NCBI GenBank assembly: GCA_050953885.1
Contig: JBMNNJ010000001.1
Coordinates: 207,437 to 271,436 of the forward strand
Reading direction: 5' to 3'
Origin: Patescibacteria group bacterium
Lineage (GTDB): Bacteria > Patescibacteriota > Microgenomatia > 0-14-0-10-38-17
DNA: 64,000 nt
The notes beneath the pieces were generated by a model. It did not search any database and was not told where the DNA came from. It saw nothing but the letters and a program-made list of their open reading frames with translations. Made by a program: the position numbers and the translations under genes. Below are positions 9,621 through 64,000 of this stretch, piece by piece (position 1 is the stretch's first letter; each line of letters begins with the position of its first letter).

Positions 9621-10000
9621 CGCGAATGAGAAACGAATGGACACGAATGAGCGAATAACATTATTCTGCTGTAAGCGTCATCCTGATGAAAATCAGGATC
9701 GGTTTTAAAGCTTAACGCTTGAAACGCTTGAGGCTTGAATCGCTTGAATCGTTTAATGTTTTTACGTTTCAAACGTCTCATACATTTCAAGCATTTCACG
9801 CATGATTCTGAATCAAGTTCAGAATGACGCTAATCGTGGATGTCATCCTGACGAATCCACCAGCCGACGGATTAAAGTTAAAAGTTTTTTTTGTTCTACT
9901 TTTGAATTTTAACTTGTAATTTTGACTTTTAACTTTTGACTTTTAACTTTTTCTGTCCGCCCGCTGGCGGATGGCGCTTGTTTATTGCTTTTTACCAGTT
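9612..10000. repeat. composite repeat array (CGAAT-periodic unit overlapping the ftsW stop, hairpins, inverted family D unit, AAAGT tract, CCGCCCGCTGGCGG palindrome)
   Basis: The family D copy here is the reverse complement of those at 43314 and 45872. Confidence 0.8.
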
Positions 10001-17637: not shown

Positions 17638-18741
17638 ATGACCATTGGCCTTGACGCTCGTTTTGCCCAAGGAAAACTTACCGGCGTGGGAAAATATATC
17701 CAAGCCTTGGCCTTGGGCTTGGCGGCGTGGCATTTTAAAGTGATTCTTTTTTACTCGCAAAAGCCCCAATCAGTCCTAAGAAGGAAGGGGATCAAAACTA
17801 TTATTCTCCCCGGTAATAAATATCTCTGGGAACAAATTTATCTGCCCCGGGCCTTAAAAAGGGAAAAAGTGGATCTTTATCATGCCACCGGCAACTTTGG
17901 TGTTCCTCTTTTTTCAAACATTCCCGCCGTTTTAACCGTCCACGATCTTATCCCCCTCCTGCAAAAAGATTATTTCAACCACGCAAAAATTCCCGTCTTT
18001 TCCCAAAAACTTTATTACTGGCGCGCTAAAACCTCAATTATGAAGGCCCAAAAAATTATCACCGACACTTACTGGACAAAAAAGACGATCGTTGATTTTT
18101 TTAAAACCCCACCTCAAAAAATTAGCGTTATCTACTTAGATTCTTCTTATCCCGAAGAAATTGACGAAAAGGCTTATCTTCAGTTTGATCTTGAAAGAAA
18201 AAAATATCTTATCAACAATGGCGGCCTTGACCGGCGCAAGAATTTGCCCAACCTTATCGGCGCTTTTGCCTTAGCCGAAAGAAAAATGCCTTGGCTAAAA
18301 TTAGTCATCACGGGAGAAAACCCGCAACTACTTCCTTTATTAAAAAAAGAAGTGGAAGAAAAAAAATTAACCCAAAAAGTTATTTTCACCGGCTTTTTGG
18401 AAGAAAAAGCTCTTTGGGGACTTTTAAAAAATGCCTTTTGCCTTTGTTATCCCACCCTTGCGGAGGGCTTTGGTCTTCCTTTAATTGAAGCTTTCCGCGC
18501 CAACACACCGGTTATTACCAGCAACCTTCCGGTTTTAAAAGAAGTCGGGGGCAAGGCTTGCCTTTTTGTTAACCCCTATCAACCCCAAGCCATCGCCCAA
18601 ACAATTATCAGCCTGCAAAACAAAACCCTTCGGCAAAAACTAATCATTTCCGGCCAAAAACAAGCCCAAAAATTTTCTTGGGAGAAAACAATTGAAGAAA
18701 ACATTAAAATCTACAAAAAGATAATAAAAAATACTACTTAA
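17638..18741 (+). CDS. GT4-family glycosyltransferase
   Basis: GT-B fold, C-terminal EGFGLPLIEA E-x7-E motif. Confidence 0.8.
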   Translation: MTIGLDARFAQGKLTGVGKYIQALALGLAAWHFKVILFYSQKPQSVLRRKGIKTIILPGNKYLWEQIYLPRALKREKVDLYHATGNFGVPLFSNIPAVLTVHDLIPLLQKDYFNHAKIPVFSQKLYYWRAKTSIMKAQKIITDTYWTKKTIVDFFKTPPQKISVIYLDSSYPEEIDEKAYLQFDLERKKYLINNGGLDRRKNLPNLIGAFALAERKMPWLKLVITGENPQLLPLLKKEVEEKKLTQKVIFTGFLEEKALWGLLKNAFCLCYPTLAEGFGLPLIEAFRANTPVITSNLPVLKEVGGKACLFVNPYQPQAIAQTIISLQNKTLRQKLIISGQKQAQKFSWEKTIEENIKIYKKIIKNTT

Positions 18742-18894
18742 AAAGGCAAAAATGATAATAGAAGGAAATATAAACGAAACATAAAAAAGTAACCAAATCC
18801 AAAATAATTAATAAAAGAAAATTATCGCTAAAAAAAGCCCGAAATAATTAATAAGATAATTGATAAAAATTTAGAAAATTTTGTTCTGGCAATA

Positions 18895-18930
18895 TGACAA
18901 ATTTTTAAGCGATCGCTTAAAAATTTGTCA
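18895..18930. promoter_or_regulatory. perfect 36-bp palindrome TGACAAATTTTTAAGCGATCGCTTAAAAATTTGTCA followed by TATAAT; copy 1 of a 55-bp duplicated box
   Basis: Left half read directly against the reverse complement of the right half with no mismatch. A consensus -10 hexamer lies 6 bp downstream. Confidence 0.6.
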
Positions 18931-19096
18931 CACCCTATAATATAAATAATATAAAAATAGCTTGGATTAATTGAATTAAAATGGTTCAGAATAAATTAGT
19001 CTAAAATGGTTTAAAAATAAAGCGAGATAAAATTAAAATCAAAAAGTAAGCATCGTAAATATCAACAATCTTTTCTAATGTTAATTCTGGATAATT

Positions 19097-19843
19097 ATGG
19101 CCAAAAATTTTCGTTTTCGCGATAATTTTCTTCTGTCTTTAGCTTTTTTAGGAGATGAATTTCTTAACATCACCCAACCATATCCGCTTCAAGCAGAAAG
19201 ATGGGCTGGTTTACTGCCTCCTGATTATAAAAAAAGTAATTTAAAAAGAAATATTTACCGGCTGTTAAAGACGGAAGAAATAGAAAAAGTAGTTAAAAAC
19301 GGCCAGCCTTATTTAAGGCTAAGCAACCGGGGGAAAAAGATCATTACCCGTGATTTTTCCCTCATCGCCCTCCAAAATAAACCGTGGGATGGTTATTGGC
19401 GAATAATTGCCTATGATATTCCGGAAAAATATAAAAAAACCCGCTATTTACTTCAACAAGAACTTCAGACCCTGGGTTTTGGAATGATGCAAAAAAGCAT
19501 CTATATTTCTCCTCACGATCTTGCCGAAGATATCCAGGAATATTTAGAAAGTAATCATTTAAGCGATTTTGCTTTTGTATCGGTGGCGAAAAGGATTTTT
19601 GGGAAAAGTAATCGGGCCTTGGCTTGGGAAGTGTGGAATTTAGAAAAATTGGAAGAAAAATACGAAGAGTGGATTGAAAACAGCCAAATTTTCCGCCAGA
19701 AAAAAATAGAACTTATCAACAATTTAAGGAAATTCAAAATCGCTTTATCGAAATTCTTTACCAAGACCCCTTTCTCCCTAAAGAACTTTGCTTCGACAAT
19801 TGGGCTGGCGAAAAAGCAGTTAAAGAATTTAAAACGCTTTTAA
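19097..19843 (+). CDS. PaaX-like transcriptional regulator
   Basis: WDGYWRIIAYDIPE...R...L...GFGMMQKSIYISP matches the PaaX C-terminal signature. N-terminal winged-helix-like region. Confidence 0.55.
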   Translation: MAKNFRFRDNFLLSLAFLGDEFLNITQPYPLQAERWAGLLPPDYKKSNLKRNIYRLLKTEEIEKVVKNGQPYLRLSNRGKKIITRDFSLIALQNKPWDGYWRIIAYDIPEKYKKTRYLLQQELQTLGFGMMQKSIYISPHDLAEDIQEYLESNHLSDFAFVSVAKRIFGKSNRALAWEVWNLEKLEEKYEEWIENSQIFRQKKIELINNLRKFKIALSKFFTKTPFSLKNFASTIGLAKKQLKNLKRF

Positions 19844-19925
19844 AAACTCAATTAAATTATCATCAAGATGAGGTTTAAATATTGGACTATCGCGTTATCG
19901 GACGATAAATTACTTATGTTTAATA

Positions 19926-19961
19926 TGACAAATTTTTAAGCGATCGCTTAAAAATTTGTCA
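19926..19961. promoter_or_regulatory. second identical copy of the 36-bp palindrome plus TATAAT box
   Basis: The 55-bp stretch AATATGACAAATTTTTAAGCGATCGCTTAAAAATTTGTCACACCCTATAATATA is identical to 18892-18946. Confidence 0.6.
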
Positions 19962-20322
19962 CACCCTATAATATATAACAGCTATATAACAACTTAGATA
20001 ATTAACTTAGATAATTAACTTAGATAACTAAAATGGTAGTAAAAGTAGAACAATACAATAAGAAAATGACTATAGACGCAAATGGAATAACAAATCTTCT
20101 CCCGAAGAGATAAACAAATAGTTCACACTAAAAAACAAGCGCACACTAAAACGTGCTAATCCAATTTATAGCAAAGTAGCAGACTTTAACCCGCGCCAAG
20201 AAAAGCGCGCAATAAATTGTGCTACTCTATTTTTTCTAGAGTAGCAATTAAACTTTATCTAGCCATATTTATATCCCGGTTATAATAATATCCAACACTC
20301 AAGAATAATTAACACCAAAAAA

Positions 20323-21261
20323 ATGAAAACTTCTTTTATCGCCACGGTATTAAATGAGAAAAAAACAATTGACGCACTTCTTAGCTCTTTGGCAAAACAA
20401 ACCAAAAAACCGGAAGAAATTATCATTGTTGATGGCGGTTCGACCGACCAAACGGTTGCAAAAATTAAGGCTTTTCAAAAAAAACATCCGGAGCTTAAAA
20501 TAAAAGTTTTTGTTAAAAAAGGCGCCAACCGTTCTCAGGGCAGAAATTTAGCCATAAAAAAGGCCCAAAATGAAGTTATCGCCATCTCCGATGCCGGTGG
20601 CGAACTTGACCGGCGGTGGCTTGAAAAAATTAGCCAACCATTTAACGATTTAAGCGTTGAGGTGGTGGCCGGCTATTTCAGGGGCAAAGGGAAAAATGTT
20701 TTTGAAGAATGTGTGGCCACCTTTACCCTCACTGTTCCCCATCGTGTCGACCCCAAAAATTTCCTGCCCACTTCGCGTTCCATGGCCATCCGCCAAAAAA
20801 CTTGGCAAAAATTTGGCGGTTTTCCCGAAGAATTTTCGGATAACGAAGATTTTGTTTTTTCAACCCGCCTTAAAAAAGAAGGGGCGAAAATCGTTTTTGT
20901 TCCCGAAGCGGTTTTTTACTGGTATCCGCGGGAAAATCTTCAGAGTTTTACCAAAATGATCTTCCGCTTTGCCCGGGGAGACGCTCTTGCCGGTCTTCGC
21001 TATGCGAAAGTGGCCACTGTTTTTAGCCGCTATCTTCTCGCTTTTGCCTTAATCTGTCTTTTGCCTTTTTATCCTTTCTTAACCCCGCTAACCATAATGC
21101 TCGCTGTTGCCTATCTTTTATGGCCCATTTTTAAAAATTATCGCTACGTCAAAAAATGGCCCGCTTTCTTTTTCCTGCCGCTTTTACAAATTACCACCGA
21201 CTTGGCGATTATAGCCGGTAGTTTAGCCGGCAGAAAACAAAAACTTTTAAAAAGGGTATAA
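20323..21261 (+). CDS. GT2-family glycosyltransferase with a C-terminal multi-TM region
   Basis: IIIVDGGSTDQT and ISDAGGELD (DxD-like) GT-A motifs. Hydrophobic C-terminal third. Confidence 0.75.
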   Translation: MKTSFIATVLNEKKTIDALLSSLAKQTKKPEEIIIVDGGSTDQTVAKIKAFQKKHPELKIKVFVKKGANRSQGRNLAIKKAQNEVIAISDAGGELDRRWLEKISQPFNDLSVEVVAGYFRGKGKNVFEECVATFTLTVPHRVDPKNFLPTSRSMAIRQKTWQKFGGFPEEFSDNEDFVFSTRLKKEGAKIVFVPEAVFYWYPRENLQSFTKMIFRFARGDALAGLRYAKVATVFSRYLLAFALICLLPFYPFLTPLTIMLAVAYLLWPIFKNYRYVKKWPAFFFLPLLQITTDLAIIAGSLAGRKQKLLKRV

Positions 21262-28063: not shown

Positions 28064-28480
28064 ATATGTCTTCTCTATAAACTATTTAAACTTAAGGCAA
28101 ATGTTAAAACTTTTTAAAACTTAAAGTTGTTTTTTAGTTTTGATCCGCCAGCTGGCGGACAGAATCGAATAACTAAAAGTTAAAAGTCAAAATTACAAGT
28201 TAAAATTCAAAAGTAGAACAAAAAACTTTTAACTTCTGCCCGCCAGCTGGCGGGCAGAATCATTCTCGTAGCTGTCATTCCTGAATTAAATTCAGGACAG
28301 GCTCTGACGAAAGTCAGGATCTAACTGATTCTGAATCAAGTTCAGAATGACGCTAATCGTGACCGTCATTCTGACGAATTCGCCAGCTGACGGATTGAGA
28401 TTTGAGTTTTAAGTTTTTTCAAGATGAGACAGATGGCATTAAATGCCAATAAATAAATTACCACCAAGAATAAATTAATT
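28064..28480. repeat. composite repeat array (CAAAA/AAAGT tract, three CCGCCAGCTGGCGG-type palindromes, hairpin cluster)
   Basis: Read directly. Confidence 0.8.
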
Positions 28481-43199: not shown

Positions 43200-43313
43200 A
43201 AGACTATTCTATCAAAAATTGATAAAACTAGGCAAACAAGGTTAAAAAAAGAAAGAAACTTAACTATAAATTTGAAGCTATTTAACCCCCGGAGTTGATT
43301 AGCTTTTGAATTT

Positions 43314-44585
43314 TGCGTGAAATGCTTGAAATGCATGAGACGTTTGAAACGTAAAAACATTAAACGGTTCAGGCGATTCAAGCCTCAAGCTTTGAAGCAT
43401 CAAGTCTTAAGGCAGATCCTGATTTTCATCAGGATGACAACTACCTTGATTCAGAATCAGTTAGCTAAAAGTTAAAATTCAAAATTTAAAAGTCAAAAGT
43501 ACAAGTCAAAATTCAAAAGTAGAGCAAAAAACTTTTAACTTTTAACTTGTCCGCCGGCAGGCGGATTCGTTAAAATGACGGCCACGATTAGCGTCATTCT
43601 GAACTTGATTCAGAATCGTTATTATTGTCAGAAAACACAGATCCTGACTTTCGTCAGAGCCTGTCCTGAATTTAATTCAGGAATGACAGTTACCTTGATT
43701 CAGAGTCGTTATTAATGTCAGAAAACGCAGATCCTGACTTTCGTCAGGATGACGGTTGCGATTAGCGTCATTCTGAACTTGATTCAGAATCTGTGTTATT
43801 GTCAAAAAACGCAGATCCTGACTTTCGTCAGGATGACGGTTACAGGTTCTGACTTTCGTCAGAATGACGGTTACGGGACTACAGGAATAACCCTGCCCAC
43901 CAGCCGACGGACAAGTTAAAACTCAAAACTCAAATGTCAAATCTCAAAACTACATGTTAAAACTTAAAACTACATGGTAAATGTTAAAACTTTTTAAAGC
44001 TTAATTCGTCAGAATGATGACAGCCGTGCCGTCATTCCGGACTTGATCCGGAATCGGTGTTAATGCCTAAAGAACGCAGATCCTGACTTTCGTCAGGATG
44101 ACGGTTATCTGAAGAACGCAGATCCTGACTTTCGTCAGGATGACGGCCACGATTAGCGTCATTCCGGACTTGATCCGGAATCGGTGTTATTGTCAGAAAA
44201 CGGTAGATCCTGACTTTCGTCAGGATGACGGCTACGGGGATGATTCCCGCCAAGCGGATTCGTCAGGATGACGACAGTCGTGCCGTCATTCCGGACTTGA
44301 TCCGGAATCGGTGTTAATATCTGAAGAACGCAGATCCTGACTTTCGTCAGGATGACAGCTATGGGGATGATTCCCGCCAGGCGGATTCGTCAGAATGACG
44401 GCCACGATTAGCGTCATTCTGAACTTGATTCAGAATCAGTTAGATCCTGACTTTCGTCAGGATGACGCTTTCGTCAGAGCCTGTCCTGAATTTAATTCAG
44501 GAATGACGGCCACGGCAGGATAATTTTATTCGCTCATTCGTGTTGATTCGTTTCCCATTCGCGTTGCTTCGTGTCTTTGGTCCAA
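43314..44585. repeat. about 1.25-kb BIME/REP-like composite array: one family D 100-bp unit, CAAAA/AAAGT low-complexity tract, CCGCCAGCTGGCGG-type palindromes, more than 20 short hairpins in repeating units of about 95 bp, ending in a CGAAT-periodic unit
   Basis: Three hairpin types (ATCCTGAC-TTTC-GTCAGGAT, ATTCTGAA-CTTGA-TTCAGAAT, TCCTGAATT-TAA-TTCAGGA) each followed by ATGACGG. They recur with conserved linkers such as GCGATTAGCGTC and GTTATTGTCAGAAAACGCA. No unique spacers. Confidence 0.85.
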
Positions 44586-44644
44586 AAATCTTGTGCTAAA
44601 ATGAAGAAAGATAAAAGAATCGCTTTTGGAAATTAAAATTCGCC

Positions 44645-45400
44645 ATGAATCACTACCGCCAACGGGAAACCAATCTTTACCAGCCCGGCCAGGAAAGACC
44701 TTTTTGGTTAAGCCGCTCCAAGATTGATCTTTTTTTGGAATGCCCCCGCTGTTTTTACCTTGACCGCCGCTTGGGTTTGAGCCGTCCCGGCATGCCTTCT
44801 TTTTCCCTAAACTCCGCCGTTGACCAGCTTTTAAAAAATGAATTTGACCTCCTGCGCCAAGAAGGCAAACCCCACCGGCTGATGGAAAAATACCGCATTG
44901 AGGCCATTCCCCTAAATCATCCCGATCTTCCCCTCTGGCGCGACGATGTCCACCGCTGGGAAGGGGCCCATGTTCACCACCAGCCCACCAATTTTGAAAT
45001 AAGCGGCATTGTTGACGACATCTGGGTAGACCGGAAAAATAATTTCTACATTGTGGACTACAAATCCACCAGCACCACAGCGGAGATTTCCCTTGAAGAT
45101 GAATACAAGCAAGGTTATAAAAAACAAATCGAGGTTTACCAGTGGATTTTTAGAAAAATGGGCTTTAGCGTTGCCAACACCGCCTATTTTGTCTACGCCA
45201 ACGCCAGCAAAAACCGCCCCCGCTTTGACGGCCGTTTGGAATTTGAGGTGCAAATTATCACCTACGAGGGCAATGACGCGTGGGTAGAGCCCACCCTTAA
45301 GGAGATTAAAAAATGCCTTGATTCCCCCAAAGTGCCCGCCGCCGACCCCGATTGCGAATATTGCCGTTATCGCCAATTAATCAGCCAGAAACTTAAATGA
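44645..45400 (+). CDS. Cas4/RecB-like PD-(D/E)xK nuclease with Fe-S cluster cysteines (stand-alone)
   Basis: IVDDIWVD...FYIVDYKST (D...D-x-K) core. N-terminal CPRCFYL and C-terminal C-x13-C-x2-C cysteines. Confidence 0.65.
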   Translation: MNHYRQRETNLYQPGQERPFWLSRSKIDLFLECPRCFYLDRRLGLSRPGMPSFSLNSAVDQLLKNEFDLLRQEGKPHRLMEKYRIEAIPLNHPDLPLWRDDVHRWEGAHVHHQPTNFEISGIVDDIWVDRKNNFYIVDYKSTSTTAEISLEDEYKQGYKKQIEVYQWIFRKMGFSVANTAYFVYANASKNRPRFDGRLEFEVQIITYEGNDAWVEPTLKEIKKCLDSPKVPAADPDCEYCRYRQLISQKLK

Positions 45401-45717
45401 TTTCTCTTGAAGACTTTCAAAAGTTGGACATCAGGGTAGGGGAGGTAAAAGAAGCCGCGGCGGTGGCCGGCAGTAAAAATCTTTTCCTCTTAAAAGTTAG
45501 CCTGGGTAAAGAAGAACGCCAAATTGTTTCCGGTTTGGCCGGCTTTTACCAGCCCGAAGAACTTTTAGGCAAACAGGTTATTCTTCTTGCCAATCTTGAA
45601 CCAAGAGTAATTTTTGGCCTTGAAAGCCAGGGAATGCTTTTGGCCGTTGACAGTGGCGCGGAAGTGGCCCTGCTCACCCCTGATCGCAAAGTAACCCCGG
45701 GCAGTCCGGTAAAGTAA
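45397..45717 (+). CDS. tRNA-binding (Trbp111/CsaA/Myf-domain) protein; start overlaps the upstream stop as ATGA
   Basis: LDIRVGEV...LKVSLGKEERQIVSGLAGFY...GMLLAV OB-fold tRNA-binding signature. Confidence 0.8.
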   Translation: MISLEDFQKLDIRVGEVKEAAAVAGSKNLFLLKVSLGKEERQIVSGLAGFYQPEELLGKQVILLANLEPRVIFGLESQGMLLAVDSGAEVALLTPDRKVTPGSPVK

Positions 45718-45734
45718 AAAAATTACCTTGAGGG

Positions 45735-46310
45735 TGATTTATGCGAATTGAGACGAACGAAAAACGAATTAACACGAAAAATAAACTCAAATCTCAAATC
45801 TCAAAACGCAAAACTACATGGTAAATGTTAAAACTTTTTAAAGCTTAATTCGCCAGCGGGCGGATAAAATCATGCGTGAAATGCTTGAAATGCAGGAGAC
45901 GTTTGAAACGTAAAAACATTAAACGGCTCAGACAATCAAGCCTCAAGCGTTTCAAGCATCAAGCTTTAAGACAGATCCTGACTTTCGTCAGGATGACGGT
46001 TACGGGGATGATTCCCGCCAGGTGGATTCGTCAGAATGATGACAGCCGTGCCGTCATTCCGGACTTGATCCAGAATCAGTGTTATTGTCAGAAAACGCAG
46101 ATCCTGACTTTCGTCAGGATGACAGCTACCTTGATTCAGAATCGTTATTAATACCTAAAGAACGCAGATTCTGACTTTCGTCAGAATGACGGTTACGGAA
46201 AGCGTCAGGATGACGACAGCCGTGCCGTCATTCCGGACTTGATCCGGAATCTGTGTTATTATCAGAAAACGCAGATCCTGACTTTCGTCAGGATGACAGC
46301 TACAGGTTTG
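45735..46310. repeat. composite repeat array (CGAAT-periodic unit, CAAAA tract, family D 100-bp unit, hairpin cluster)
   Basis: Built from the same modules as 43314-44585. The ORF-track 'proteins' here (45876-46151, 46155-46367) are repeat translations. Confidence 0.8.
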
Positions 46311-50639: not shown

Positions 50640-51180
50640 ACGCGAATGAGCGAATAACTGGCGCAAAAATAATTCAAAAGGCAAAAGTCAAAATTCAAAA
50701 TTGCAAGTCAAAAGTTAAAAGTTTTTTGCTCTACTTTTGAACTTTAACTTGTACTTTTGACTTTTGAATTTTGACTTTTAACTTTTAGTTATTCGATTCT
50801 CTCCGCTACGCTGGCAGACAGAATCATATTTTTCCCGGGGTTTGAAGCTAATCAACTCCGGGGGTTAAATAGCTTCAAACCTTGGGATTTTTGAATTTAA
50901 TTCAGGAATGACGGTTGCGATTAGCGTCATTCTGAACTTGATTCAGAATCGTTATTGTTATTAATGTCTAAAGACACAGATCCTGACTTTCGTCAGGATG
51001 ACGGACGGGGCGGTTACAGGTTCTGACTTTCGTCAGGTGACGGCCACGATCAGCGTCATTCTGAACTTGATTCAGAATCGTTATTGTTATTAATGTCAGA
51101 AAACGCAGATCCTGACTTTCGTCAGGATGACAGTTACGGAACTACAGGAATAATCCTGTCCGCCAGTTGGCGGATGGCGT
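50620..51180. repeat. composite repeat array (CGAAT unit overlapping the gatB 3' end, 130-bp AAAGT/CAAAA inverted-repeat tract, family C unit, hairpin cluster)
   Basis: Same modules as the other arrays. 50670-50790 is itself a near-palindrome. Confidence 0.8.
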
Positions 51181-58382: not shown

Positions 58383-58660
58383 AGTAGCTCCAATGGGAAT
58401 CGAAGACGCGCCGATTATCATCATTTAGCCCGAAAATTCCCATCTCAGAATCACGATTCACCGGCGGAAGCCCTATTATTAGAGGTATTTGATGGGTTCG
58501 ATAAACCCATTGTCGCTACTTAGTAGCTCCAATGGGAATCGAAGACGCGCCGATTATCATCATTTAGCCCGAAAATTCCCATCTCAGAATCACGATTCAC
58601 CGGCGGAAGCCCTATTATTAGAGGTATTTGATGGGTTCGATAAACCCATTGTCGCTACTT
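58383..58660. repeat. two tandem 139-bp units, each starting with the 22-nt 3' end of tRNA-Glu (minus strand) followed by 117 bp of unrelated sequence
   Basis: Units 58383-58521 and 58522-58660 are essentially identical. The third occurrence of AGTAGCTCCAATGGGAATCGAA starts the intact tRNA. Confidence 0.85.
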
Positions 58661-58662
58661 AG

Positions 58663-58734
58663 TAGCTCCAATGGGAATCGAACCCATGTTACCACCTTGA
58701 AAGGGTGGTGTCCTAACCGTTAGACGATGGAGCC
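58663..58734 (-). tRNA. tRNA-Glu (anticodon UUC)
   Basis: Acceptor GGCTCCA/TGGAGCT (G1-U72), anticodon stem CCACC/GGTGG, loop CTTTCAA, T-arm TGGGTTCGATTCCCA. Confidence 0.85.
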
Positions 58735-60779: not shown

Positions 60780-61259
60780 AAAAAATCTCAAATTCCTATT
60801 TAATTCAAAATTTAAAAGTCAATCCGCCAGCTGGCGGATCAAAATTGCAAGTTAAAATTAAAAAGTAATGCAAAAAACTTTTAACTTTTGTCCGCCAGCG
60901 GGCGGATTCGTCAGAATGACAACCACGATTAGCGTCATTCTGAACTTGATTCAGAATCGTCTTAAGGAATGATTCTGACTTTCGTCAGAATGACACTTTC
61001 GTCAGGATGACAACAGCCGTGCCGTCATTCCGGACTTGATCCGGAATCGGTGTTATTGTCAGAAACGCAGATTCTGACTTTCGTCAGAATGACGGTTACG
61101 GGACGGTTACAGGAATAATTTTGTCCGCCAGCTGGCGAATTTAGTTTTGAGTTTTAACATGTAATTTTTAGTTTTGCGATTTAACATTTGAGTTTATTTA
61201 TTGTTTTTAAATTTTGATTTAGGCTTTGATATTTGATATTTGCGTTTTGATTTACCCTT
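60780..61259. repeat. composite repeat array (CCGCCAGCTGGCGG palindromes, AAAGT tract, hairpin cluster, half of the family G palindromic element)
   Basis: Same modules as the other arrays. Confidence 0.8.
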
Positions 61260-61943: not shown

Positions 61944-62255
61944 ACTAATAATTAAATTGGTATATTGTTAAACTGTTAAATTGCTATATTGCTTAAAGAC
62001 GCGAATGAGCGAGGAGTACCATTCTGACATAAACGTCATTCTGAACTTGATTCAGAATCTGCTTTGGGGATAAAGGACAGATCCTGACTTTCGTCAGGAT
62101 GACGGTTTCGTCAGAGCCTGTCCTGAATTTAATTCAGGAATGACGATTTCGTCAGGATGACGGTTTAAATTAATTTCTTAATTTTCAGCGAGCCTTGCGA
62201 GCAAATTTCTTTTAAAATTTCAATTTAACAGTTTAGCAATTTAGCAATAAATTTC

Positions 62256-63626: not shown

Positions 63627-64000
63627 AAAACAATATTATTCTAAAAGCAGAGGTGAGCATCTTGCGGATAATTCAAGCTTAAGTTGAAAAAACTCAAAAT
63701 TCAAATCGCAAAACTCAAAACTAAAACTCAAAACTCAAATCTGGAAAAACATTTTTAAACTTTAAAAAGTTTTAACATTTGCCATGTAGTCCTGCCTTGC
63801 CGGCAGGCAGGTTTGCCATTTGCGTTTTGAGTTTTGAGATTATTTTTCGTGTTTATTCGTTTTACATTCGCGTCAATTCGTGTCTTTAAACGATGAAACA
63901 ACACAGTTTTTATACTTAATACATCATACTTAACTTAATACTATATACTATTTTTCCCATGCCTATCTCTCCTTATTCCCAAAAAATAAACAAGCCCTGG

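What the first reader, a model, noticed from the sequence alone, without database searches (positions are those of the whole stretch)
18892..19975. PaaX-like regulator gene bracketed by two identical 55-bp boxes, each carrying a perfect 36-bp palindrome plus TATAAT
TGACAAATTTTTAAGCGATCGCTTAAAAATTTGTCA is perfectly symmetric over 36 bp and is followed 6 bp later by TATAAT. The identical 55-bp box occurs 150 bp upstream of the PaaX-like gene and again 80 bp downstream of it, upstream of the GT2 glycosyltransferase. The whole 1.5-kb block is markedly AT-rich. A 36-bp perfect palindrome is far longer than chance. It is the expected operator for a dimeric winged-helix repressor, suggesting an auto-regulated switch controlling a surface-glycan modification gene. 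Alternatively, direct-repeat boundaries of an excisable single-gene module.
Basis: seen in the sequence. Interest (0 to 1): 0.65.

Follow-up and report, generated by a model that had tools for sequence, protein, structure and literature searches.

The report
PaaX-type regulator bracketed by its operators
The two identical boxes are real and are most likely the binding sites (operators) of the PaaX-family regulator encoded between them, a layout that recurs across this protein family in ultra-small CPR bacteria, so it is an ordinary kind of gene switch with unusually clear comparative evidence and a few unusual details.

Summary
An exact 54-bp direct repeat (18891-18944 and 19922-19975) brackets a PaaX-family gene. 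Each copy holds a perfect 36-bp palindrome followed by CACCC-TATAAT.

The operator reading is supported by comparison, not by experiment:
- In at least 27 of 43 family loci from CPR genomes, the gene has a CGATCG-centred (or CGGCCG-centred) symmetric site just upstream. A second site with the same locus-specific arms lies at or inside its 3' end.
- Symmetry is tripartite: a core, a weaker middle, and outer half-sites 13-19 bp from the dyad. This matches the geometry of the E. coli PaaX box, TGATTC-N27-GAATCA.
- Half-site classes track classes of the predicted recognition helix.
- A sister strain about 97% identical in the flanks has different arms together with a different N-terminal helix region.
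- The same palindrome also sits ahead of other glycan genes in sister genomes. At one orthologous promoter it carries a substitution mirrored in both arms.

The excisable-cassette, hairpin and phage readings are not supported. The window's own copy of the gene is frameshifted (A7 instead of A8). Regulatory sign, ligand and the role of the second site remain inferred.

Verdict: a new member of a known kind, of moderate interest.

The parts
18891..18944 (+). Box 1: copy 1 of the exact 54-bp direct repeat (AATA + palindrome + CACCC + TATAAT + ATA). Proposed operator-promoter of the PaaX-like gene.
18895..18930 (.). Perfect 36-bp palindrome, proposed operator 1. The core GCGATCGC sits at the dyad and the outer half-sites TGACAAA/TTTGTCA lie 12-18 bp from it.
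   Evidence: Tripartite symmetry across the family. Geometry equals the E. coli PaaX box.
18936..18941 (+). TATAAT, a -10-like hexamer 5 bp after the palindrome. This puts the dyad at about -35.
   Evidence: The same PAL-N5-TATAAT/TATTAT/AATAAT layout occurs in four of the five other contexts. It is a consensus match only.
19097..19878 (+). PaaX-family gene with a predicted wHTH (recognition helix about residues 49-57, wing 61-76), a Cas2-like dimerization domain and a short helical C-terminal domain. Reading it through to 19878 needs a -1 shift in the A-run. As it stands the ORF is 19097-19843 (248 aa).
19700..19706 (+). A7 run, a 1-nt deletion relative to the A8 of intact relatives. It frameshifts the gene before the PaaX_C domain. 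The same deletion is present in three other public contigs (L001, L002, L095).
19922..19975 (+). Box 2: copy 2 of the 54-bp repeat. Proposed second operator-promoter, facing the leader and the GT2 gene.
19926..19961 (.). Perfect 36-bp palindrome, proposed operator 2. A second site at or inside the 3' end of the gene is a family-wide feature.
19967..19972 (+). TATAAT after box 2.
19991..20031 (+). 13-bp tandem repeat (AACTTAGATAATT, 3.2 copies) in the leader after box 2. There is one more copy in strain L001.
20204..20246 (.). Two overlapping small hairpins in the leader. GCGCAATAAATTGTGC followed by a T-rich run is terminator-like on the + strand. The motif recurs after an operator on L064.
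20323..21261 (+). GT2 glycosyltransferase, the putative regulated gene downstream of box 2.
17638..18741 (+). GT4 glycosyltransferase, the conserved upstream neighbour. It is part of the syntenic glycan locus.

Best explanation
The two boxes are operator-promoter modules bound by the PaaX-family regulator encoded between them.

Inferred mechanism:
- A dimer places its two winged-helix domains on the outer half-sites (TGACAAA / TTTGTCA, 12-18 bp either side of the dyad).
- A conserved part of the protein contacts the invariant CG-RY-CG core at the dyad.
- Because TATAAT follows each palindrome by 5 bp, the dyad sits at about -35. A bound dimer would therefore block (or, less likely, recruit) RNA polymerase.
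- Box 1 would make the gene self-regulating.
- Box 2 would place the leader and GT2 glycan operon under the same control.
- Further identical sites ahead of other glycosyltransferase, methyltransferase and epimerase genes in sister genomes would make up a small surface-glycan regulon.
- The two sites flanking the gene may also cooperate, for example through a repression loop of about 1 kb. An unknown ligand would release the protein.

Shown here: the sites, their family-wide conservation and architecture, the covariation with the protein, and their presence at other glycan promoters.

Inferred: binding itself, repression rather than activation, looping, and the ligand.

In this particular strain the regulator is frameshifted, so it lacks its C-terminal domain. 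The switch may therefore be locked or broken here.
For: 1. The protein is a PaaX-family member.
- Pfam gives PaaX_M, and PaaX_C in the intact forms.
- The family profile matches the E. coli PaaX structure 8a39 at E = 1e-15.
- Foldseek's top hits are 8a39 and 3kfw.
- The model shows a helix-turn-helix plus a beta-hairpin wing.

2. There is family precedent. The E. coli PaaX box is TGATTC(N27)GAATCA, and PaaX represses its own promoter by occluding RNA polymerase (PMC9493321).

3. All orthologous loci carry a 36-40 bp palindrome both upstream and downstream of the gene. The centre CGATCG is kept, and the arms are lineage-specific.

4. Across 43 loci, CGATCG occurs at 1.51 per kb near the gene ends and 0.23 per kb elsewhere (46 observed against 11.8 expected, p = 2e-17). 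At least 27 loci have the bracket.

5. Symmetry by offset is 1.0 at offsets 1-3, dips to 0.45-0.6 at offsets 7-12, rises to 0.76-0.9 at offsets 13-19, and is at background beyond 20. The identity between the two sites of a locus shows the same profile.

6. Recognition-helix classes go with half-site classes.

7. Window versus L005 is a natural experiment.
- GT4, GT2 and the central 420 bp of the gene are 92-100% identical.
- Two islands, each holding an operator and the adjacent end of the gene, are unalignable.
- In the mosaic L087, the upstream site follows the N-terminus.

8. The identical palindrome, with unique flanks and mostly followed by N5 and a -10-like hexamer, lies ahead of glycan genes in sister genomes.

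9. At the orthologous promoter of a 78%-identical GT2 ortholog, the site is kept with one substitution mirrored in both arms.

10. In several members the site embeds TTGACA-N18-TATATA or abuts the start codon, so it overlaps the core promoter.
Against: - There is no binding, expression or footprint data.
- The -10 assignment is a consensus match. The promoter scan found no more promoter-like sites than in shuffles (11 against 7.7 +/- 3.5), and no -35 match lies 17 bp upstream of TATAAT.
- In this lineage all 36 bp, including the family's loosely constrained middle positions, are identical at six or more sites. That is more than a transcription-factor site usually needs, and it hints at recent copying or arm-to-arm homogenisation.
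- In about half of the family loci the next gene after the second site is convergent, so the second site is not generally a downstream promoter.
- The mosaic allele (L087, L094) pairs an L005-type N-terminus with a window-type downstream site. Under the simple model that protein should not bind that site.
- About 10 of the 43 loci show no detectable site.
- The helix and half-site covariation is partly confounded by shared ancestry.
- The window's own regulator gene is frameshifted.
Confidence: 0.78

Rival explanations
1. The boxes are the ends of a mobile or excisable single-gene cassette, or of a REP/RAYT-like selfish unit in which the Cas2-like protein handles its own flanking palindromes and spreads them around the genome.
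For: - The gene is bracketed by identical repeats that are at once direct and inverted.
- The same palindrome is dispersed at other loci.
- Each paralog has its own palindrome.
- Family members sit between genes that are normally adjacent, for example mreB and mreC.
- The central domain is Cas2-like.
- Alleles at the locus are mosaic.
Against: - Gene order GT4, X, GT2 is conserved from 98% down to 59% protein identity. PBP2-X-dprA and IMPase-X-pgi also recur in different genomes.
- No empty-site contig was found.
- No recombinase, transposase or HUH domain is present, and the fold is that of a transcription factor.
- Only about five extra contexts turned up in 241 million metagenome records, each with unique flanks and a promoter-proximal position.
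- Neither the site nor the protein occurs on viral contigs.
- Between strains it is the ends of the unit that vary while its centre is about 97% identical. That is the opposite of whole-cassette replacement.
Confidence: 0.06
2. The palindromes act as nucleic-acid stem-loops or cruciforms, for example terminators, RNA processing sites or replication/recombination signals. The protein link would then be incidental.
For: - As single-stranded DNA the box folds into a 16-bp stem with a GATC loop, at -14.9 kcal/mol and z = -8.1.
- In this lineage the palindromes are perfect over 36-40 bp, and substitutions are mirrored in both arms.
- Assemblers break contigs inside the palindrome.
Against: - Family-wide, pairing dips in mid-stem (0.45-0.6) while the outer 7 bp stay at 0.76-0.9.
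- Mismatches show no G-T wobble excess on either strand: 50 G-T against 46 A-C, with 195 non-pairing.
- The stem is AT-rich and is not followed by a T-run, and the terminator scan did not call it.
- TATAAT lies downstream of the palindrome, so the palindrome would not be in the transcript that starts there.
- No Rfam family matches.
Confidence: 0.05
3. The two boxes are just one more recently duplicated intergenic repeat in a repeat-rich genome, with no dedicated function.
For: - The window and its sister contigs are full of dispersed intergenic repeat families, up to 96% identical.
- The 54-bp identity extends beyond the palindrome, as a recent duplication would.
Against: - The same two positions carry a site pair in lineages whose arm sequences are unrelated.
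- The shared unit at other loci is exactly the palindrome plus a -10-like hexamer, not a longer element.
- In most loci, identity between the two sites follows the tripartite pattern rather than being uniform.
Confidence: 0.04
4. The invariant GATC-containing core is a methylation target. Competition between the regulator and a DNA methyltransferase would make an epigenetic on/off (phase-variable) switch for surface glycans, as with Dam at pap or agn43. This reading would add to the operator model rather than replace it.
For: - The core CGATCG is invariant where the arms vary.
- The targets are surface-glycan genes.
- The Dam, pap and agn43 precedent is my own knowledge and was not checked here.
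Against: - A subclass of the family uses CGGCCG, which has no GATC, in the same layout.
- No methyltransferase motif was found in the 64-kb window, and there is no particular GATC or CGATCG bias.
- The idea was not otherwise testable here.
Confidence: 0.05

Closest known systems
PaaX, the phenylacetyl-CoA-responsive repressor of E. coli and Pseudomonas (structures 8a39, 3L09), and its PaaX box
   Same: - Same protein family and three-part build: wHTH, Cas2-like dimerization domain and helical C-terminal domain.
- Same operator geometry: short inverted half-sites about 33 bp apart centre to centre, giving a total span of 36-40 bp against 39 bp for TGATTC-N27-GAATCA.
- Autoregulation of its own promoter is known for PaaX (PMC9493321).
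   Different: - It is not the PaaX equivalog: 75 bits against a cut-off of 264.
- No paa genes are nearby. The host is a CPR bacterium, and the neighbours are glycan and envelope genes.
- The C-terminal domain is much shorter, about 60 aa.
- The sites have an invariant CG-RY-CG core at the dyad and come as a pair bracketing the regulator gene. Neither feature is described for PaaX in what I could read.
- There are several paralogs per small genome.
Rv0674 of Mycobacterium tuberculosis (structure 3kfw), a PaaX-like protein of unknown function
   Same: It is the second-best match by sequence profile and by fold. It is a short PaaX-like protein found outside phenylacetate catabolism.
   Different: I know of no described operator or site pair for it, and I did not examine it here.
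Repressors that use two distant operators and DNA looping (LacI O1/O2, GalR OE/OI), and the lambda cI gene flanked by OL and OR with exchangeable 'immunity' regions. This comparison rests on my own knowledge.
   Same: - A regulator whose sites lie upstream of, and within or beyond, a transcription unit.
- For lambda, the repressor gene is bracketed by its own operators. The DNA-binding end of the repressor plus the operators are swapped as a unit between otherwise similar genomes, which resembles the two variable islands seen between the window and L005.
   Different: - The protein families are different.
- No looping is shown here, and the spacing of the two sites (614-1163 bp) shows no helical phasing.
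- The locus is chromosomal and stable, not part of a phage.
REPtrons (RAYT transposase genes flanked by their cognate REP palindromes). This comparison rests on my own knowledge.
   Same: A gene is flanked by its own palindromes, the same palindromes occur elsewhere in the genome, and different paralogs have different palindromes.
   Different: - The protein is not an HUH/Y1 transposase.
- Copy number is low.
- The sites are promoter-proximal and conserved in position.

Membership tests
PaaX protein family (Pfam PaaX_M / PaaX_C; structure 8a39) | Central Cas2-like (ferredoxin-fold) dimerization domain, PaaX_M | tested here: met
   PF20803 matches at 5.8e-22, 78 bits against a cut-off of 24. 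Foldseek hits Cas2 proteins for this segment.
PaaX protein family (Pfam PaaX_M / PaaX_C; structure 8a39) | C-terminal helical PaaX_C domain | tested here: met
   PF08223 is precomputed for the intact relatives P0001-P0007 and most of the family. The profile alignment to 8a39 runs through the DPxLPxELLPxxW motif. In the window copy this domain is out of frame.
PaaX protein family (Pfam PaaX_M / PaaX_C; structure 8a39) | [quoted passage not shown] | tested here: inconclusive
   Pfam called no N-terminal domain. The AlphaFold model shows helices 7-25, 29-36 and 49-57 followed by a beta-hairpin at 61-76, and Foldseek aligns 237 columns to PaaX 8a39. However, pLDDT is only 50-73 over residues 1-60.
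PaaX equivalog (phenylacetate catabolism repressor, TIGR02277) | Score above the curated equivalog cut-off | tested here: not met
   73-76 bits against a cut-off of 264.55.
PaaX equivalog (phenylacetate catabolism repressor, TIGR02277) | Genomic association with paa catabolic genes | tested here: not met
   The neighbours are GT4, GT2, a methyltransferase and a lipase in the window. In other members they are mreB/C, PBP2/dprA and pgi.
PaaX-type operator (PaaX box) | Two short inverted half-sites separated by about 27 bp (span about 39 bp) | tested here: met
   Symmetry peaks at offsets 13-19 from the dyad across 29 upstream, 17 downstream and 9 internal sites. The span is 36-40 bp. The reference value comes from PMC9493321.
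PaaX-type operator (PaaX box) | Bound by the cognate protein, with binding relieved by a ligand | not testable with these tools
   This needs EMSA or footprinting with purified protein. The ligand is unknown.
Mobile cassette / REPtron-like element | Variable genomic location, presence/absence polymorphism, or an associated recombinase or transposase | tested here: not met
   Synteny is conserved. No empty site was found. There is no recombinase domain and there are no viral contigs.
Structured RNA / intrinsic terminator | Pairing maintained along the whole stem with wobble-tolerant covariation. For a terminator, also a GC-rich stem followed by a T-run. | tested here: not met
   Pairing dips in mid-stem, there is no wobble excess, the terminator scan did not call it, and there is no Rfam match.

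The most novel reading that the evidence does not exclude
The family may be a CPR-specific class of 'bracketed' local switches. In this reading, each PaaX-like regulator sits between two copies of its private operator. The operator together with the recognition-helix end of the gene is exchanged between co-existing strains as a specificity cassette, much like a phage immunity region. An A8 slippage tract could then switch the regulator, and with it a surface-glycan regulon, on and off. That would amount to strain-level and phase-level variation of the cell surface in episymbiotic bacteria, driven by rewiring of regulator specificity rather than by change in the glycan genes themselves.
Probability: 0.15. 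Interest if true: 0.65.

Novelty: new member of a known kind. Interest (0 to 1): 0.42.

Why it matters
CPR/Patescibacteria have tiny genomes and few recognisable regulators, and almost nothing is known about how they control their cell surface, which is their interface with host cells. This locus provides several things:
- a concrete, testable pairing of a regulator and its operator;
- a site model: outer half-sites plus a CG-RY-CG core, in pairs that bracket the gene;
- a candidate glycan regulon.

The family-wide set of private protein and site pairs also works as a natural specificity table. It could help define how PaaX-type proteins read DNA, for which no complex structure exists. If the strain-level swapping of operator and recognition helix is real, it would be an example of regulatory rewiring between near-identical genomes.

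Tried and rejected
- **Rfam.** Searches on the locus and on eight contigs carrying the palindrome gave nothing above threshold.
- **Viral collections.** Neither the site nor the protein family was found.
- **Further copies in the window.** No other copy, half-site or PaaX-like paralog exists in the 64 kb.
- **Empty site.** I looked for a contig with GT4 directly next to GT2 and found none.
- **Helical phasing.** The distances between the two sites of each locus show none (Rayleigh p = 0.05-0.7).
- **Methylation idea.** No methyltransferase motif and no GATC/CGATCG bias appear in the window, and a CGGCCG-centred subclass exists.
- **Conserved leader RNA after the operators.** Only a 25-nt hairpin motif is shared, so I dropped this.
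- **Small ORF in the leader.** The 26-codon ORF starting near 20034 is interrupted by a stop in strains L001 and L004, so I treat it as non-coding.
- **L079.** Its two sites in inverted orientation come from a mirror-image chimeric assembly, so I discarded it.
- **del Peso-Santos 2006 (PMC1483010).** The paper is not held, so details of the Pseudomonas PaaX box rest on the review.
- **Distant GT2 orthologs.** The 68%-identical orthologs L098 and L101 have no site, so regulon membership is not conserved at that distance.
Full report
**1. Observation**

The window holds an exact 54-bp direct repeat at 18891-18944 and 19922-19975. Each copy consists of AATA, the perfect 36-bp palindrome TGACAAATTTTTAAGCGATCGCTTAAAAATTTGTCA, CACCC, TATAAT and ATA.

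About 1.4e-6 perfect 36-bp palindromes are expected by chance in this window. No shuffle gave a match, and there is no further copy or half-site copy in the 64 kb.

The repeat brackets a gene with a PaaX central (Cas2-like) domain. Upstream lies a GT4 glycosyltransferase and downstream a GT2 glycosyltransferase. The closest named relatives are Candidatus Shapirobacteria, which belong to the CPR/Patescibacteria.

**2. The gene**

As it stands the ORF runs 19097-19843 (248 aa). Its C-terminal domain continues in the -1 frame and ends at 19878.

Intact 260-aa relatives that are 98% identical read straight through (P0001). The difference is an A7 run at 19700-19706, where all intact relatives have A8 and one lineage has the interrupted AAAGAAAA. 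The deletion recurs in three other public contigs (L001, L002, L095). It is therefore probably real rather than an assembly slip.

The family profile matches the E. coli PaaX crystal structure 8a39 (E = 1e-15). A predicted model (pLDDT 83) hits 8a39 and Rv0674 first, then Cas2 proteins for the central domain. It scores far below NCBIfam's PaaX equivalog cut-off. It is a distant PaaX-family protein, not the phenylacetate regulator.

**3. Comparative anatomy of the sites**

Gene order GT4, PaaX-like, GT2 is conserved in relatives from 98% down to 59% protein identity. In every one of them a 36-40 bp palindrome lies both upstream and downstream of the gene. The centre (G)CGATCG(C) is kept, but the arms differ by lineage:

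| Lineage | Palindrome |
|---|---|
| Window | TGACAAATTTTTAAGCGATCGCTTAAAAATTTGTCA |
| L014 | TGGGACATAAATTTAAGCGATCGCTTAAATTTATGTCCCA |
| L005 | GGAATTAAAAAGGGGGTGATCGCCCCCTTTTTAATTCC |
| L015 | AACAAATTACTATGGCGATCGCCATAGTAATTTGTT |

I then fetched 43 loci of the wider family from species-representative genomes: Shapiro-, Levy-, Woese-, Gottesman- and Blackburnbacteria and others, often with several paralogs per genome.

- CGATCG occurs at 1.51 per kb within 350 bp of the gene ends and at 0.23 per kb elsewhere (46 observed, 11.8 expected, p = 2e-17).
- At least 27 loci have a symmetric site 20-100 bp before the start and a second site with the same locus-specific arms. The second site lies either just after the stop or inside the CDS at about +510 to +630, in the variable linker.
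- A subclass uses CGGCCG instead of CGATCG in the same layout.
- About 10 loci show no site at my thresholds.

**4. Site architecture**

Aligned on the dyad, symmetry is 1.0 at offsets 1-3, falls to 0.45-0.6 at offsets 7-12, rises to 0.76-0.9 at offsets 13-19, and is at background beyond 20. The identity between the two sites of one locus follows the same tripartite profile.

This is the geometry of the experimentally defined E. coli PaaX box, TGATTC(N27)GAATCA. PaaX is also known to repress its own promoter by blocking RNA polymerase, and no PaaX-DNA complex structure exists (PMC9493321).

Mismatched positions show no wobble excess: G-T 50, A-C 46, other 195. The pattern is one of protein contacts rather than a stem-loop, even though the window's box would fold well as single-stranded DNA.

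In several members the site embeds TTGACA-N18-TATATA or abuts the start codon. In the window's lineage a -10-like hexamer follows the palindrome by 3-6 bp. Either way the site overlaps a core promoter.

**5. Protein and DNA covariation**

Classes of the predicted recognition helix go with classes of half-site:

| Recognition helix | Half-site |
|---|---|
| HNxSRV/L | TGTAT |
| NFxHLxWR | TTTAAC |
| SYxSxVSR | CCTTG |
| IYRLLK / TYRLLK | GACAAA |
| TIHR | ACACTT |

Shared ancestry confounds this in part, but one comparison breaks the confounding. Between the window and strain L005, the GT4 gene, the GT2 gene and the central 420 bp of the regulator gene are 92-100% identical. Two islands are essentially unalignable:

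- 18718-19250, holding operator 1 and the first ~50 codons, which include the recognition helix;
- 19680-20319, holding the last ~65 codons and operator 2.

Mosaic alleles exist in independent assemblies. L087 and L094 combine an L005-type N-terminus with a window-type C-terminus. L087 has an L005-type upstream site and a window-type downstream site. L094 has the window-type downstream site, and its contig stops short of the upstream one. Each operator therefore travels with the adjacent end of the gene.

**6. Other copies of the window's palindrome**

A scan of public metagenome contigs for TGACAAAT-N7-CGATCG-N7-ATTTGTCA found 36 contigs.

Besides the PaaX locus, the same 36-bp palindrome occurs in at least four other contexts. 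Some copies carry a one-pair variant.

| Context | Position of the palindrome |
|---|---|
| B | just after an FkbM methyltransferase gene |
| C | between a PMT_2-type membrane glycosyltransferase and a small membrane protein plus GT2 operon |
| D | in an ORF-free, repeat-rich stretch near map and uvrB |
| E | about 95 bp ahead of a GT2 plus GT4 pair |

- No PaaX-like gene is present on those contigs.
- They share the window's dispersed repeat families at up to 96% identity, so they come from the same or sister organisms.
- Their flanks are unique. The only shared unit is the palindrome, mostly followed by N5 and TATAAT, TATTAT or AATAAT.
- Contig L064 carries a window-type site and also an L005-type site ahead of a sugar epimerase gene.
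- At the orthologous position ahead of a 78%-identical GT2 ortholog, the site is GTGACAAACTTTTAAGCGATCGCTTAAAAGTTTGTCAC. It has one substitution mirrored in both arms and is again followed by N5-AATAAT.
- More distant orthologs have no site.

This picture fits a small regulon of glycan genes, not a high-copy repeat.

**7. Rivals**

- An excisable or mobile cassette is contradicted by conserved synteny, the absence of an empty site, the lack of a recombinase domain, the lack of a viral link and the low copy number.
- A hairpin role is contradicted by the symmetry profile and the mismatch spectrum. There is also no T-run or terminator call.
- A meaningless recent duplication is contradicted by the conserved positions of site pairs whose sequences are unrelated.
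- A GATC-methylation switch is weakened by the CGGCCG subclass and could not otherwise be tested.

**8. What remains unexplained**

- Why in this lineage all 36-40 bp are perfectly symmetric and identical at six or more sites, when family-wide the middle positions are loose.
- What reads the invariant core.
- Why the second site is tied to the 3' end of the regulator gene even when the next gene is convergent.
- How the mosaic allele works.
- The regulatory sign, the ligand and any looping, all of which are inferred.

**9. Verdict**

The operator and autoregulation reading is supported by strong indirect evidence, and the excision alternative is not supported.

The thing is a PaaX-family regulator with its operators, so it is a new member of a known kind. 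I found no paper linking PaaX to CPR bacteria. Three features have not been described in what I could search:
- an invariant dyad core;
- operator pairs that bracket the gene, seen across the family;
- strain-level swapping of operator and recognition helix.

Interest is moderate.

Noticed in passing
window 19700-19706: The A7 homopolymer causes a frameshift in the regulator, where intact relatives have A8 and one lineage has the slippage-proof AAAGAAAA. It could be a pseudogene, a truncated allele or a phase-variable tract.
   Followed up: partly
window 19991-20031; L001 about 2062-2115: The 13-bp tandem repeat AACTTAGATAATT after box 2 varies in copy number between strains, with about 3 copies in the window and about 4 in L001. 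Other lineages also have short tandem repeats right after their downstream site, for example AAACAACACAT in L015.
   Followed up: no
window 43300-46300, 60880-61150, 9680-9860, 28270-28400, 50840-51130, 62030-62150, 63690-63860: The genome is rich in dispersed intergenic repeat families shared with sister contigs at 70-96% identity. These include 84-bp and 127-bp tandem arrays at 43585-43841 and 44004-44400.
   Followed up: no
window 28234-28259, 28144-28159, 60822-60839: A different family of GC-rich perfect palindromes is built on CCGCCAGCTGGCGG, for example TTCTGCCCGCCAGCTGGCGGGCAGAA (26 bp). Its function is unknown.
   Followed up: no
window 58383-58682 and tRNA-Glu 58662-58734: A 139-bp unit is repeated 2.2 times at 100% identity and overlaps the end of a tRNA-Glu gene. 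It may be an integration-site duplication or an assembly artefact.
   Followed up: no
L063:753-788, L072:1374-1409, L080:252-287, L081:1526-1641, L082:1395-1430: High-GC contigs (0.56-0.59), which are therefore probably not CPR, carry other perfect 36-48 bp palindromes. These have the same outer arms (TGACAAAT) and the same CGATCG centre but different inner bases. L081 has two different ones 77 bp apart. The neighbours are unrelated (PfkB kinase, amidohydrolase, pstC) and no PaaX-like gene lies on those contigs.
   Followed up: partly
L087, L094, L090 versus window 19097-19878: Mosaic alleles of the regulator gene exist. L087 and L094 combine an L005-type N-terminus with a window-type remainder. 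L090 is window-type with a short L007-type patch at about 19702-19762. This indicates frequent recombination between co-existing strains, or chimeric assembly.
   Followed up: partly
window 20207-20222; L064:2869-2893: A short hairpin motif, GCGC-AATAAATT-GYGC followed by a T-rich run, recurs in two leaders that follow these operators: the window's GT2 leader and the leader of the L064 epimerase gene. It may be an attenuator.
   Followed up: partly
L003 start, L096 end, L064 and L071 (site at position 35), L068 end: Public assemblies often break inside or right next to the palindrome. L079 is a mirror-image chimeric contig centred between two copies. Long perfect palindromes are an assembly hazard in these genomes.
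   Followed up: yes
L020, L023, L031, L033, L043, L049, L055: Family members sit co-directionally between housekeeping genes that are usually adjacent or co-transcribed: mreB-X-mreC, PBP2-X-dprA and inositol monophosphatase-X-pgi. This suggests the family acts as a set of local gates inside conserved gene strings in CPR genomes.
   Followed up: partly
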